From the human T2T-CHM13v2.0 reference genome, Homo sapiens, in NCBI RefSeq assembly GCF_009914755.1, contig NC_060930.1: DNA of 64,000 bases. The stretch is one strand, 5' to 3'. Of the stretch, positions 20,412 to 60,644 are shown one piece after another; the first letter of the stretch is position 1; each line of letters begins with the position of its first letter. A program made the position numbers and the translations under genes. A model generated the notes under the pieces. It ran no database searches and had not been told where the DNA came from. It saw only the letters and a list, made by a program, of their open reading frames with translations.

Positions 20412-20761
20412 CTTACTGTAAGTCACTACTGATAAGTTGTTTGCGTGACTGCTGGGAGACAGATTTACAGAGTTCTGTGACAGTCTATTCTGGTCTTGCT
20501 CAGTTTGGTCAGGAGCAGGAGCCCATGTGTCAGGAGCAGGAGCCCATGTGTTTTTGCTGATCGAGTCGAACTCGGAGCCCCCAGGGTCTTTTAAGTTGTT
20601 TTCATCTGATTGTCGGTTCTTTTGGGGAGAGGCAAAAGGGTTGAAGTTTCCTTCTACCTTACGATGCGGCTGTGTGTTGAACTCCGTTTCAAAAGATGAC
20701 AGCTGCTGCGTTACTCCTAAAAGTCCACCCACCTCCACACTGAGAATCACCCAGATGACAT
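20412..20761 (-). CDS. ILRUN: ILRUN coding exon 4 (350 nt, phase 1-0; DVIWVILSVEVGG...NLSVVTYSK)
   Basis: Part of ORF 20382..20849(-). Acceptor CCTTTTTGTTTCAG|AT (AG at 20762-20763); donor AAG|GTAGGT (GT at 20410-20411). The frame joins exon 3 (G+AT = Asp). Confidence 0.97.
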
Positions 20762-21205
20762 CTGAAACAAAAAGGTAACTCATTTCAATGCCAGGCTTAC
20801 CCTTAAAGGCCCAAGATAGCCACCACCAAAAACCCCAAACATTATCCAAACCACAGAATGAAACATTCTTCTATATGCTAGTTTTAAAAGCTTGCTAACA
20901 AAGCTGCCTGGTACATTTGCATTGCATGCATAGCTACATTTTTGGTAATGTCAAATTCAAATTCTAGTATAAATTCAGCAGAGGTCTGTGGTGAGATCCA
21001 TGAAACTCTATTTATAAAAAGCTTACCAGTTGATGCCAATGCACCGTCATCTTTGGAAATCATTATTCCAGAGAACGATCAATAGATAGAAATCAAAAGT
21101 TTCCTAGAATTGGTATCTCTTTGTGGTTTTTCACTTTATTTTACATGTATTTTACAATTATGAGAATTACAACTTTATCAATGCTCTTCCCTTTGGGGGC
21201 AATTT

Positions 21206-21318
21206 AGAATGACCATATGTTGTCCAAACTAGGACAAATGAGAGTGAAAGAGGGACCTATTAATAATTACGCCAGGACCAGCATTTATCTAGACAAAATG
21301 GAAGATACTATCACCCTG
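21206..21318. mobile_element. MER81-like hAT-Blackjack MITE
   Basis: TGACCATAT..GTCCAAAC..GAGAGTGAAAG..TATTAATAATTACGCC..TCACCCT resembles the MER81 consensus. Confidence 0.6.
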
Positions 21319-21419
21319 GCTATCTTCTCAATCTATTTGACCAAAAGACACCAAGAATTTGGCATGCCTCAGACTTTCTAAAATACCCAATTTAACACCT
21401 GCTTTGCTTTTCTGTCATA

Positions 21420-22574
21420 CAGTCATGCATTGCTTAATGAAGAAGATATGTTCTGAGAAATGTATCATTAGGCAATTTATCACTGTGTGAACATCATAGA
21501 GTGTACAAACCTAGATAGTAGAGCCTACTACACACCTAGGCTATATGGTATAGCCTATTGCTCTTAGGCTACAAATCTCTATAGCATGTTACTGTACTGT
21601 TACTTTATTGAATACTGTAGGCAACTGTAATACAACAGTAAGTATATGTGTATCTAAACGTATCTAAGGCCAGGCCAGATTTCATGTCTGTAATCCTGGG
21701 CATTCTGGGAGGTCTAGGCAAGAGGATCACTTCAGACCAAGAGTTTGAGACCGTCCTGGGTGACACAGGGAGACTCTGTCTCTACCAAAAACTTAAAAAT
21801 TAGCTGGCCGTGGTGGTGCTCGCCTGTAGTCCCAGCTACTTGGGGGACAGAGGTGGGAGGATCGCTTGAGCCCAGGAGGTAGAGGCTGCAGTGAGCTGTG
21901 ATTACACCAATGCACTCCAGCTCAGGCAACACAGCACCACCCTGTCTTAAAAAAAAAAAAAAATTACAGCCGTGGGTGGTGGCTCATGCCTGTAATCCCA
22001 ACACTCTGGGAGGCTGAGGCAGGAAGATCACTTGAGGTCAGAAGTTCGAGACCAGCCTGGCCAACATAGTGAAACCCCATCTCTACTGAAAATTAAAAAA
22101 CTAGCTGGGCATAGTGGCGGGTGCCTATAATCCCGGCTACTCAGGAGGCTGAGGCAGGAGAATTGCTTGAGCCTGGGAGGTGGAGCCGAGATTGTGCCAC
22201 TGCACTCTAGCCTAGTTGACACAGCAAGACTCCATCTCAAAAAAAAATTAAAAAATTAAAAAAAATAGCTAAACATAGAATAGTAAAATATATGATATGA
22301 AAGATAAAAAATGATATACCTGCCTAGGGAACTTACCATGGAGCTTTCAAGCCTGGAAGTTGATCTGGGTGAGTCAGTGAGTGAATGTGGACATTACTAA
22401 ATACTATGTAGACTTCATAAACACTGTGCAGTTAGGTTACACCAAATTCATTAAAAAACAAACTACAATGTTATGGAAGCTACAGTGTCACTAGGTAACA
22501 GGAATTTTTCAACTCCATTATAACTTTATGGGACCACCATCACTGACCAAAACATCATTATACAGTACAAGACT
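21420..22574. mobile_element. Tigger3-family non-autonomous DNA transposon interrupted by two Alus (21668-22266)
   Basis: Starts CAGTCATGCATTGCTTAATG..GTTCTGAGAAATG; ends GGACCACC..GACCAAAACATCATTATACAGTACAAGAC. Confidence 0.8.
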
Positions 22575-57900: not shown

Positions 57901-58499
57901 TATTTATATTCCAACTACTTTTGAATTTGAGAGAGTTGCTATGAGTATAAAATGTAATGTCCCACATAGTGATAATTATTTTAAATTTAACACTAAAAAC
58001 ACACACACATAAAACAAGACTAGCGTTCTTAACCACTAGGGAACATTGAGAAGTAGTATTTTTTCATCAAAGGGATTTTTTTTTATTTTTAAGTCATGTA
58101 TATTGTCTTCTTCTCCCCTTAAAAATGGTAGCATGTATTTTAAAAATTTACTAAGTAGCTATTCTCCATTCTGCATTAAGCTCAACATTTTTGAGTTATA
58201 AAGATAAACCAGACATGTGTCACCTTCAGTTTTAAAGATGACATGAGACATTTATCAAATTAAATGGGTAGAAAGACGTAAAGTGCCAAGAGAAGAAACA
58301 AAGGAGTGAGAGGTGAAGAGCTAATATAAAGGAGCTCAGCAGTGGGAGAAACAACTTCCAATCCCAGGTCAAGGGGATTCTTAGCAGACACTGCCTGAAA
58401 ATGGAGTCCTACAGGGAAGAGACAAATAACCTCTCTACATTTTGATATGTGATTATTCAATTATTCAACAAATTGTTCACAATTTCATAGGATAAAAGG

Positions 58500-60060
58500 A
58501 TAAGCAAAACAAATACCTAATATACAATGTGTTAAATATAATAACAAGCATGTGCATGATATTAATGAAGGGGGAGGGATGAATTTTCTTAGGGTAGTGG
58601 GGAGAGGAGGCAAGGGGGAGGAAGCAAGAAGGAAAGGTGACTCAGGCAGGGCCTTGAGGATGAGCAGCAGTTTGGTGAAATAAAAGGATATTTCAGGCAA
58701 TGAGACAAATGAGCAAGGGCATGGAGAAGTGAAAGCATATGGCATCTTTGGGGACTGACTGTGGGGGAGTTAGGGGATGACTGAAGATGGGAGTGAAAAT
58801 GAGTCCAGGCCAGATCGTGAGCCTTATATCCTGTGCCAAGGAGTTTAGCTTCATTACAGTAGGTACAAAGGCTTTAGGCAAAGAATGATGTCACATAAGC
58901 ACTATGAGACTCTTTCTAATATTAACATTTCTAAAGTTGCCACTGGCTCCAAAAACATATATGAGATCACTAATTCTAGGATGTCTAGAAACAACTCCAA
59001 AGTTCCCACTGGCCCACAGGCCATGAGTCCAGTTAAGAGCTCTGTGAAGGCAAGTACTATTTACTATTTATTTGTTTTTGATCTCCAGGACACAGGATAT
59101 AGTGGAACCAATAGGAATCAGTTTCTGATTAGGAATGACAGAACAAATGATGGCTCCCAGGTTTCTGACCCGATTATCTCAGGGGGGTGCCAATGAGAAG
59201 GATATAAGGTTGGTTTTTTTGTTTTGTTTTGTTTTTTTGAGACAGGCGCTCACTCTGTAATTCAGACTGGAGTGCAGTGGTGTGATCATGGGTCACTGCA
59301 ACCTCGACCTCCTAGGCTCAAGCAATTCTCCCACCTCAGCCTCCCAAGTAGCTGGGACAACAGGCTCACCCCACCACGCCAGGCTAATTTTATTTTTTGT
59401 AGAGACAGGGTCTCTCTGTTTTGCCCAGGCTGATCTCGAGCCTCTGGGTTCATGCAATTCTCCCACTTCAGCCTCCCAAAGTGCTGGGATTATAGGCGTG
59501 TGCCACCATGCCCAGCAGATATAAATTGTGTCTGGGAGATGTTAAAAGTTCTGCCCATAACGAGTTAAAACATGGGTGTGGGGTTCAGAAAAGAGGCCAC
59601 AGCTATAGATATTAATTTGAGCATCACCGTGTATGGTATACTGGCGACAGCTGAAGCCGCATGGGTGAATGAGGTCACCAACCATGAATGGGGCCCAACT
59701 AAGAATCTAGGAATCCCAGGGTAAAGTTGAGAATAGACAGAGACAGAGAAAGAACAGAGAAGAGGAAGACAAACAGGAGAGATGTCCTATGAGTCTAAGA
59801 AAGTACCTATTTCAAAAAACTTGTGTAGTATGGTGCCAAATGATCATTAAAAGGTCAGCTGGTATGAAGACTGTAATGAGGCTACTGGATTTGGAAACAG
59901 GGTAGTCCCTGATTAACTTTCATTGGAGTGGGGAGTGGATAAAGGATAAATTGGGTTGAAGAGTGAATGGAAAATGTGAAAGAAGAGACAGTGAGTATAG
60001 ATCACTGCTCAAAACGTTTGGCAATAAAGAGAAGGGAGTGAGATATGTTAGCAGTTTGAC
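58500..60060 (-). mobile_element. L2 fragments (purine-rich), interrupted by an Alu at 59209-59516
   Basis: GGCCAGATCGTGAGCCTT, TGATGGCTCCCAGGTTTCTG, GGATTTGGAAACAGG..GGAGTGG..GGGTTGAAGAGTGAATGG. Confidence 0.6.
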
Positions 60061-60446
60061 AAGTAGGTTGGAAGAAGTATGCACATTTTGTGCATTATCT
60101 GTTTTATATGACTTGTGTCTAGAGACTTTGAGAACAAGGACTGCCTTTAGTATTCTTACAGTATCTACCAGCTTATATAATAAAAACAACAGCACTACTA
60201 AATATTTATTTAGAACACAAAATATAATACCTCGTACAGGTCACTAAATTATATTCCTAGGATAAAAGAAAGAGCACTAGACTAATCAATTAGTCATAAA
60301 ATGCAAATCATTTACCTGCATGAGGTGACTGTTAAAAAGAGGCCATGCCCTGTTATGCAATTTGACAGGCTCTGTGAGCAACACTGGGGATGTTATAAGA
60401 TGTTACCTTAGTTCCTTTACCCTGGGCTGCACAAGGACATACTCAC

Positions 60447-60644
60447 CTCCATAGTAGAGTCCTGTAGCAGTGCACATCCGCCACTGTCCCTGATACATTC
60501 CTGCTCTGCTGGGGCTGCACATCTGGACGCTGACATCTGCAATCTCTTGGGGCTCTAGCGATCTCACCATCACCATGTTCACATGTCCAAATTGGTCTCC
60601 CCCGACATATTTAAGACAAACCCCTGGAGGCCAGGCCTCTGCCC
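60447..60644 (-). CDS. ILRUN: ILRUN coding exon 3 (198 nt, phase 1-1; G105-G170, NBR1-like FW domain: GAEAWPPGVCLKYVGGDQFGHVNMVMVRSLEPQEIADVSVQMCSPSRAGMYQGQWRMCTATGLYYG)
   Basis: Part of ORF 60403..60678(-), which matches the ILRUN protein. Acceptor TTTTGCTTGAACTCAG|GG (AG at 60645-60646); donor GAG|GTGAGT (60441-60446). Confidence 0.97.

What the first reader, a model, noticed from the sequence alone, without database searches (positions are those of the whole stretch)
20412..60644. Exon 3+4 back-splice circle (548 nt) would carry a near-full-circle 181-aa ORF with a stop-restart junction (TGA-AC-ATG)
Seen in sequence: joining the exon 4 donor (20412) to the exon 3 acceptor (60644) gives a circle of 198+350 = 548 nt. 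The in-frame ATG of Met128 (60574-60576) has a strong Kozak context (A at -3, G at +4). Reading runs through native residues 128-287, crosses the junction as AAG|GGG, and continues in a shifted frame GQRPGLQGFVLNMSGETNLDM to a TGA (60579-60581) only 2 nt before the start ATG. The ORF plus stop occupies 546 of 548 nt. The nearest flanking Alus are inverted relative to each other (+ at 18881-19515, - at 61446-61848). Established: such inverted flanking Alus promote back-splicing, and stop/start juxtaposition resembles the circSHPRH-146aa design. I recall C6orf106 circRNAs in catalogues, but this needs verifying. Inference: the circle could make an ILRUN proteoform lacking the UBA-like domain and carrying a new 21-aa C-terminus, possibly modulating the ILRUN-IRF3 axis. 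The tight fit could be coincidence.
Basis: partly seen in the sequence, partly recalled or inferred. Interest (0 to 1): 0.8.

Follow-up and report, generated by a model that had tools for sequence, protein, structure and literature searches.

The report
Rare ILRUN exon 3-4 circular RNA
The circular RNA made of ILRUN exons 3 and 4 does appear in one published catalogue at low abundance, but its neat near-full-circle reading frame is what chance and the host gene's own coding sequence would give, and nothing shows that it is translated.

Summary
The sequence facts hold. Exon 3 (198 nt) plus exon 4 (350 nt) give a 548-nt circle. An ORF from Met128 reads 160 native residues plus 21 shifted-frame residues and ends at a TGA 2 nt before its own ATG. 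The back-splice is real in at least one catalogue: Zheng 2016 Supplementary Data 1 lists it with spliced length 548 and 16 unique reads in 6 of 26 libraries. It falls below all three of that paper's high-abundance cut-offs. It is absent from the held supplements of Guo 2014 and Maass 2017.

The "tight fit" is not exceptional. With the protein sequence fixed and synonymous codons redrawn, the shifted-frame stop lands at this codon in 12.5% of draws, and the ORF always covers at least 513 of 548 nt. The flanking Alus are inverted, but equally strong inverted partners lie much closer.

[quoted passage not shown] Both domains are needed for ILRUN's IRF3 effect. I found no translation evidence. Verdict: an ordinary, low-abundance circRNA whose coding role is unsupported.

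The parts
60447..60644 (-). ILRUN exon 3 (198 nt), codes residues 105(part)-170 of the NBR1-like domain. Its acceptor at 60644 is the back-splice acceptor.
   Evidence: AG|GGGCAG acceptor, GAG|GTGAGT donor; 65 of 65 residues match 6VHI_A 43-107. PF16158, E 6.2e-17.
20412..20761 (-). ILRUN exon 4 (350 nt), codes residues 170(part)-287, mostly the disordered region. Its donor at 20412 is the back-splice donor.
   Evidence: CAG|ATGTCA acceptor, AAG|GTAGGT donor; no Pfam family; residues 181-298 described as disordered.
60574..60576 (-). ATG of Met128, the first in-frame ATG of exon 3 and the start of the 181-aa circle ORF (context AACATGG).
   Evidence: Met at residues 128, 130, 146, 154 and 161.
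60582..60644 (-). 21 codons read in the native +1 frame after the back-splice junction (the new C-terminal tail).
   Evidence: list of shifted codons.
60579..60581 (-). TGA stop of the circle ORF. It is formed by Val126 GTG plus the first base of Asn127 AAC, and lies 2 nt before the ATG.
18881..19516 (+). Two tandem Alu elements in intron 4, about 0.9 kb downstream of the exon 4 donor and antisense to the transcript.
   Evidence: four Metazoa_SRP-like arms on +, 48.6-57.4 bits, below the gathering score of 70.
61446..61848 (-). Composite Alu in intron 2, about 0.8 kb upstream of the exon 3 acceptor and sense to the transcript.
   Evidence: three Metazoa_SRP-like arms on -, 27.3-51.6 bits, below gathering.
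56553..57159 (+). Two Alus in intron 3. They are the nearest inverted partners of the intron 2 Alu (4.3 kb away across exon 3) and compete with the pairing that would favour the exon 3+4 circle.
   Evidence: duplex energy -400.7, against -414.1 for the 42-kb flanking pair.
20762..60446 (-). Intron 3 (39.7 kb), which must be spliced out of the circle. It carries 44 Alu segments (26 on +, 18 on -).

Best explanation
The exon 4 donor is occasionally back-spliced to the exon 3 acceptor of ILRUN pre-mRNA. This gives a low-abundance 548-nt exonic circRNA, one of at least three minor circles from this gene. It forms as a by-product of splicing in an Alu-dense gene with long introns. The 181-aa ORF is not a designed feature. 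It is the host reading frame from the first in-frame ATG of exon 3, carried across a junction in a circle whose length is not a multiple of three. It is then closed by an ordinary hidden +1-frame stop made by the Val126-Asn127 codons. The most likely state is that the circle is untranslated or negligibly translated and has no function through that ORF. Shown: the sequence geometry, the presence of back-splice reads in one catalogue, Alu identity and orientation, and the domain truncation. Inferred: Alu-assisted formation, absence of translation and absence of function.
For: Geometry. Catalogue entry: Zheng 2016 Supplementary Data 1 row chr6:34574331-34614575(-), genomic length 40244, spliced length 548, C6orf106, 16 unique reads (Stomach_rep1 1, Brain_rep2 2, BLCA 3, BRCA 4, BRCA_NT 4, KCA_NT 2), so 6 of 26 libraries. 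By comparison circHIPK3 has 866 reads in the same table. Its circular ratios are 0.093 and 0.192 and log10(SRPBM+1) is 0.242. The paper's high-abundance cut-offs are >0.2, >0.2 and 0.301. Sister circles: exon 4 alone has 5 reads and exons 2+3 have 4 reads. Chance tests: 12.5% of synonymous resamplings reproduce the stop position, and the earliest possible stop still gives 513 of 548 nt covered. DRACH motifs are not enriched: 19 against 14.8 +/- 2.6, and 90 of 1000 dinucleotide shuffles reach 19. Alu competition: there are 56 Alu segments in the window. The flanking pair has duplex energy -414.1 at 42 kb. Competitors have -400.7 at 4.3 kb, -437.2 and -366.5 inside intron 4, and -489.3 in intron 3. 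Domain truncation. No paper names such a circRNA or protein: 0 papers in each.
Against: The circular ratio of 9-19% at these splice sites is not negligible, although it rests on few reads. The start codon has a strong Kozak context. Absence from the Fan 2022 and riboCIRC supplements is weak evidence: the databases themselves (riboCIRC, TransCirc, circAtlas, circBase) could not be queried, and the held riboCIRC file has only 20,639 characters. A low-abundance circle can still be enriched in a cell type that was not sampled. The catalogue libraries were ribominus, not RNase R-treated, so circularity of this particular species was not shown in what I read.
Confidence: 0.8

Rival explanations
1. 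The circle is translated by cap-independent initiation into a 181-aa ILRUN-derived protein with a cellular role. One possibility is interference with full-length ILRUN or its partners through the half NBR1-like domain and the disordered region. The stop 2 nt before the ATG would favour re-initiation lap after lap.
For: A junction-spanning ORF starts at an ATG in strong context. The circle exists. Other circRNA-encoded truncated host proteins are described in reviews.
Against: There is no junction or host-gene entry in 4 supplementary files of a proteomics-backed circRNA translation study. The circle is of low abundance. The ORF begins mid-domain, at position 65 of 122 in 6VHI_A, so the beta-sandwich cannot form as in the crystal. 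It keeps only the region that was dispensable for the known function. The stop position is within chance expectation. DRACH motifs are not enriched.
Confidence: 0.05
2. The circle acts as a non-coding RNA, for example as a miRNA or protein sponge, or its formation competes with linear ILRUN splicing and so tunes mRNA output. The ORF is irrelevant.
For: The circle exists and takes 9-19% of junction reads at its sites in one data set. Competition between back-splicing and linear splicing is a general property of circRNA biogenesis (established knowledge, recalled).
Against: There are 16 reads in 26 libraries, and the circle is in the paper's low-abundance class. It is absent from two other catalogues' held files. 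I did no binding-site analysis, and no paper describes such a role.
Confidence: 0.08
3. The catalogued back-splice is an artefact and no circle exists in cells. It could come from reverse-transcriptase template switching, trans-splicing or a tandem exon duplication.
For: Only one of the three catalogues whose supplements I could search lists it. The libraries were not RNase R-treated. I saw no individual validation of this species.
Against: The junction uses the exact annotated GT/AG sites of exons 4 and 3. It recurs in 6 independent libraries. In the same study all 36 commonly expressed candidates tested were enriched by RNase R, and 20 of 26 novel candidates were validated. Sister circles from the same gene appear in two catalogues.
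Confidence: 0.07

Closest known systems
circSHPRH / SHPRH-146aa, with circ-AKT3 and circPPP1R12A (circRNA ORFs with overlapping start-stop codons)
   Same: It is an exonic circle from internal coding exons. An ORF in the host frame crosses the back-splice junction, adds a short unique C-terminus and fills almost the whole circle. For comparison circSHPRH is 440 nt for 146 aa (review table and passages).
   Different: [quoted passage not shown] Here the arrangement is TGA-AC-ATG with no overlap. They also have experimental translation evidence, according to the review. I found none for ILRUN.
ILRUN exon 2+3 circle (hg19 chr6:34614377-34622556, 353 nt)
   Same: Same gene and same exon 3, and it also appears in ribominus or non-poly(A) data.
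   Different: It appears in two catalogues, with mean circular fraction 0.228 in Guo 2014 Table S2A. It therefore has at least as much support as the exon 3+4 circle, although it has only 4 reads in Zheng 2016. Exon 2 lies outside the window, so I did not analyse its ORF.
Linear ILRUN isoforms ILRUNb (lacks residues 105-170) and ILRUNc (lacks residues 1-74)
   Same: They are naturally occurring truncated ILRUN forms that lose part of the NBR1-like domain or the UBA-like domain.
   Different: The matching deletion constructs were each inactive in the IRF3 assays. [quoted passage not shown]

Membership tests
Exonic circular RNA (back-spliced annotated exons) | RNA-seq reads joining a downstream donor to an upstream acceptor at canonical GT/AG sites | tested here: met
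   Zheng 2016 Supplementary Data 1 has a row for exons 3+4 with spliced length 548 and 16 unique reads in 6 of 26 libraries. The sites are GT/AG. The circle is not listed in the held files of Guo 2014 or Maass 2017.
Exonic circular RNA (back-spliced annotated exons) | Resistance to RNase R, or another proof of circular topology, for this species | not testable with these tools
   The catalogue libraries were ribominus. RNase R validation in that paper covered other candidates. circBase and circAtlas could not be queried.
Exonic circular RNA (back-spliced annotated exons) | Inverted complementary repeats in the flanking introns (common, not obligatory) | tested here: met
   The pair is 18881-19516 (+) and 61446-61848 (-): 85.2% identity over 236 nt and duplex energy -414.1, against -178.2 for a same-orientation control and -171.4 for shuffles. 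It is not privileged over nearer competitors.
Translated circRNA of the circSHPRH type | ATG-initiated ORF spanning the back-splice junction | tested here: met
   The ORF is 181 aa. All 5 in-frame ATGs of exon 3 give junction-crossing ORFs that end at the same TGA.
Translated circRNA of the circSHPRH type | Overlapping start-stop codons (UGAUGA or UAAUGA) | tested here: not met
   The stop is at 60581-60579 and the start at 60576-60574, separated by AC. The definition comes from review passages.
Translated circRNA of the circSHPRH type | Evidence of ribosome engagement or of a junction or tail peptide | tested here: inconclusive
   There were 0 occurrences of the gene names or coordinates in 4 files of Fan 2022 and in the 1 held riboCIRC file.
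Translated circRNA of the circSHPRH type | An IRES or m6A element that drives cap-independent initiation | tested here: inconclusive
   There are 19 DRACH motifs against 14.8 +/- 2.6 in dinucleotide shuffles, and 90 of 1000 shuffles reach 19. No IRES predictor is available.
Functional ILRUN proteoform (inhibitor of IRF3 signalling) | [quoted passage not shown] | tested here: not met
   The ORF starts at residue 128. The domain limits and its necessity come from Ambrose 2020 passages.
Functional ILRUN proteoform (inhibitor of IRF3 signalling) | Intact NBR1-like (FW) domain (residues 71-180) | tested here: not met
   Met128 is position 65 of the 122-residue chain 6VHI_A. Exon 3 as a whole spans Pfam PF16158 profile positions 26-99 of 108. 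Trp109 is lost, and Trp159 and Trp174 are kept.

The most novel reading that the evidence does not exclude
The ILRUN exon 3+4 circle is translated, and the TGA-AC-ATG arrangement works as a termination-reinitiation site. A ribosome that has been loaded once would then restart at Met128 on every lap, which would amplify output of a 181-aa protein from a rare RNA. That protein has half an FW domain, the hydrophobic patch and the phosphorylated disordered region. It would act apart from ILRUN's known UBA- and NBR1-dependent activity.
Probability: 0.03. Interest if true: 0.55.

Novelty: new member of a known kind. Interest (0 to 1): 0.18.

Why it matters
If it were translated, this would add an ILRUN-derived protein to the list of circRNA-encoded proteins. 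It would also give a natural test case for stop-restart on a closed RNA, in a gene linked to interferon control and lipid traits. As it stands, the value of the check is negative. A near-full-circle ORF and a stop next to the start arise readily when coding exons are circularised. Such geometry should not be read as evidence of coding function without junction-level ribosome or peptide data.

Tried and rejected
**Literature**
- Two searches for names of the circRNA ('circILRUN' and five spellings of circC6orf106/circ-ILRUN) each found 0 papers.
- C6orf106+circRNA found 5 papers, ILRUN+'circular RNA' 3, C6orf106+hsa_circ 2 and ILRUN+circRNA 3. None concerns a human ILRUN circle, judged by the listings and by the passages I read.
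- One retracted bovine study lists C6ORF106 as a circRNA host gene without naming exons.
- One mouse study lists a D17Wsu92e circle. I could not assign its exons.
- A search for the hg19/hg38 coordinates as numbers found 56 papers. The 20 listed were all unrelated, because the numbers were other identifiers.

**Supplements**
- Maass 2017: 0 occurrences of the gene name or coordinate prefixes in 3 files.
- Fan 2022: 0 occurrences in 4 files.
- riboCIRC: 0 occurrences in 1 small file.
- Guo 2014: the exon 3+4 circle is absent.
- Zheng 2016 file 1 was cut when stored, so I cannot say whether the circle also appears in that paper's 'novel circRNA' sheet.

- Cross-mammal conservation of the shifted frame could not be tested, because no mammalian genome or transcript collection is available in these tools.
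- I did not attempt structure prediction of the joined 181-aa product.

**Idea rejected**
- m6A-motif enrichment as a hint of translation. It appeared against mononucleotide shuffles (19 against 11.3 +/- 2.9) but not against dinucleotide shuffles.
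Full report
**1. The observation**

Reading the minus strand confirms the exon borders. Exon 3 runs 60644 to 60447 (198 nt; acceptor ...CTCAG|GGGCAG, donor GAG|GTGAGT). Exon 4 runs 20761 to 20412 (350 nt; acceptor ...TTTCAG|ATGTCA, donor AAG|GTAGGT).

Joining the exon 4 donor to the exon 3 acceptor gives 548 nt, and 548 mod 3 = 2. The ATG at 60576-60574 has context AACATGG. It is the first in-frame ATG of exon 3. From it the native frame runs 160 codons, residues 128-287, to the last base of exon 4. Reading then crosses the junction and continues for 21 codons in the native +1 frame of exon 3. It stops at TGA 60581-60579, two bases before the ATG. ORF plus stop take 546 of 548 nt.

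The script found 13 ATGs in the circle. Five of them, all in the native frame, give junction-crossing ORFs of 181, 179, 163, 155 and 148 aa with the same stop. The best other ORF is 34 aa.

**2. Is the geometry more than chance?**

The tail frame is the native +1 frame. Stops can arise there only at a codon ending in TA or TG that is followed by a codon starting with A or G. In the 22 native codons before Met128 there are three such places:
- Leu115-Lys116: human CTT|A, no stop.
- Val118-Gly119: GTC|G, no stop.
- Val126-Asn127: GTG|A, the observed TGA.

I kept the amino acids and drew synonymous codons uniformly (100,000 draws). The position of the first stop was:

| Shifted codon | Share of draws |
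|---|---|
| 11 | 66.7% |
| 14 | 8.3% |
| 22 (observed) | 12.5% |
| 25 | 6.2% |
| later, or none within 30 codons | 6.2% |

. So the observed configuration is a 1-in-8 outcome. In every outcome the ORF covers at least 480 + 33 = 513 of 548 nt, because the ATG lies only 68 nt into the circle. The native +1 frame of the window's coding exons carries 12 stops in 193 codons. DRACH motifs number 19 against 14.8 +/- 2.6 in dinucleotide-preserving shuffles, and 90 of 1000 shuffles reach 19. The near-full-circle ORF therefore follows from where the first Met of exon 3 lies. It is not a sign of design.

**3. Does the circle exist?**

No paper in the searchable library names a circILRUN or circC6orf106 (0 papers in each). 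The broader gene-plus-circRNA searches gave nothing on a human ILRUN circle.

Supplementary Data 1 of Zheng et al. 2016 (PMC4823868; supplement rows and header read) does list it. The row is chr6:34574331-34614575 on the minus strand, genomic length 40244, spliced length 548, gene C6orf106, 16 unique back-splice reads. The reads are Stomach_rep1 1, Brain_rep2 2, BLCA 3, BRCA 4, BRCA_NT 4 and KCA_NT 2, so 6 of 26 ribominus libraries.

The spliced length is 198 + 350. The same start coordinate begins a 350-nt circle, exon 4 alone, with 5 reads. The window span of 40233 nt differs from the hg19 span by 11 nt, which lie in intron 3.

Supplementary Data 2 gives circular ratios of 0.093 (5') and 0.192 (3') and log10(SRPBM+1) of 0.242. 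The paper's thresholds for a highly abundant circRNA are >0.2, >0.2 and >0.301 (passages), and the circle fails all three. For scale, circHIPK3 has 866 reads in the same table.

A third circle, exons 2+3 (353 nt, 4 reads), is listed too. It also appears in Guo et al. 2014 Table S2A with mean circular fraction 0.228, whereas the exon 3+4 circle is absent there. The held supplements of Maass et al. 2017 contain neither the gene name nor the coordinate prefixes.

The libraries behind the Zheng catalogue were not RNase R-treated. In that study all 36 commonly expressed candidates tested were enriched by RNase R, and 20 of 26 novel candidates were validated. I did not see this species among the validated ones.

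**4. Flanking repeats**

BLAST of the two elements against the window confirms that 18881-19516 is two tandem Alus on the + strand. It also confirms that 61446-61848 is a composite Alu on the - strand. The reverse-orientation identity is 85.2% over 236 nt. Rfam gives sub-threshold 7SL (Metazoa_SRP) matches on the matching strands: four arms at 48.6-57.4 bits, and three arms at 27.3-51.6 bits, against a gathering score of 70.

The window is crowded with Alus. I counted 56 merged segments:

| Region | + strand | - strand |
|---|---|---|
| Intron 3 | 26 | 18 |
| Intron 4 | 6 | 4 |
| Part of intron 2 inside the window | 0 | 2 (overlapping) |

Predicted duplex energies show that the 42-kb flanking pair (-414.1) is not privileged:

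| Pairing | Energy | Distance |
|---|---|---|
| Intron 2 Alu with 56865-57159 | -400.7 | 4.3 kb, across exon 3 only |
| Intron 4 Alu with 5354-5639 (same intron) | -437.2 | 13.6 kb |
| Intron 4 Alu with 10237-10459 (same intron) | -366.5 | 8.7 kb |
| Intron 4 Alu with 37709-37984 (intron 3) | -489.3 | 18.2 kb |
| Same-orientation control | -178.2 | |
| Shuffled control (mean of 10) | -171.4 | |

The arrangement permits Alu-assisted back-splicing, and it fits the low yield. It is not specific evidence.

**5. What the ORF would make**

The 65 residues of exon 3 are identical to positions 43-107 of the 122-residue chain 6VHI_A, 'Protein ILRUN'. They match Pfam N_BRCA1_IG (PF16158) at profile positions 26-99 of 108, E 6.2e-17. 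Exon 4 matches no family. Met128 is position 65 of the crystallised chain.

Ambrose et al. 2020 (PMC7270589; abstract and passages read) place the domains as follows:
- NBR1-like domain: residues 71-180.
- Disordered region: residues 181-298.

They report that deleting either domain abolished inhibition of IRF3 signalling, while removing the disordered region did not. Their delta-NBR1 construct lacks residues 105-170, which is exactly exon 3 and corresponds to isoform ILRUNb.

[quoted passage not shown] It would consist mainly of the region that is dispensable for the known activity, plus 21 new residues. It cannot be an ILRUN 'lacking only the UBA-like domain'. A folded half beta-sandwich is unlikely; that is my inference.

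**6. Comparison with known cases**

[quoted passage not shown] The ILRUN circle shares the general plan: host frame, junction-spanning ORF and a short unique tail. It does not share the overlap, because the stop and start are separated by AC.

I found no evidence of translation. The gene names and coordinates occur 0 times in 4 supplementary files of Fan et al. 2022 and 0 times in the single held riboCIRC supplement. These absences are weak evidence, because the databases themselves could not be queried.

**7. Verdict**

The sequence observation is correct, and the back-splice is real in one catalogue. The circle is a minor species. Its ORF geometry lies within chance expectation. Its Alu pair is unexceptional. 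Its product would be a domain-broken fragment, and no data show translation.

I put 0.8 on a low-abundance splicing by-product with no function through the ORF. I put about 0.05 on a translated functional protein, 0.08 on a non-coding or splicing-competition role, and 0.07 on an artefactual junction.

It remains the cheapest decisive computation.

Noticed in passing
window 60447-60644 (-): Exon 3 alone is 198 nt, exactly 66 codons, and is open in the native frame with five ATGs. An exon-3-only circle would therefore carry an endless ORF with a Gly codon at the junction. Skipping of this same exon gives the in-frame isoform ILRUNb, which lacks residues 105-170. No exon-3-only circle is listed in the held part of Zheng 2016 Data 1, where the exon 3 start coordinate occurs only in the exon 2+3 row.
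   Followed up: partly
window 60447-60644 plus exon 2 outside the window (about 68.4-68.6 kb by offset): An exon 2+3 circle (hg19 chr6:34614377-34622556, 353 nt) is in two catalogues, with mean circular fraction 0.228 in Guo 2014. A mouse D17Wsu92e circle spanning 7,992 nt has a span like the human exon 2+3 circle (8,179 nt). It may be its counterpart, but I could not assign its exons.
   Followed up: partly
window about 52050-52310 (-), inside intron 3: Guo 2014 Table S2A lists a 243-nt circle at hg19 chr6:34605987-34606230. In the window this maps next to an Alu. A TTACAG acceptor-like site and a GTGAGT donor-like site bound a segment of about that size. The exact mapping is uncertain by up to 11 nt. 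If this is a cryptic exon, it could also be included in exon 3+4 circles and change their frame.
   Followed up: partly
window 20510-20551 (-), exon 4: There is a perfect tandem duplication of a 21-nt unit in the coding sequence. It gives the repeated TWAPAPD heptapeptide in the disordered region.
   Followed up: no
window 19014-19465 and 61528-61579: Sub-threshold Rfam matches to the mir-1268, mir-3135 and mir-1285 precursor families lie inside the Alus. The best is 57.5 bits against a gathering score of 83. They most likely reflect the Alu origin of those families rather than miRNA genes here.
   Followed up: no
window 20762-60446 (intron 3): The span from the exon 4 donor to the exon 3 acceptor is 40233 nt in this T2T window and 40244 nt in hg19 coordinates. 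That is an 11-nt difference between the assemblies inside intron 3.
   Followed up: no
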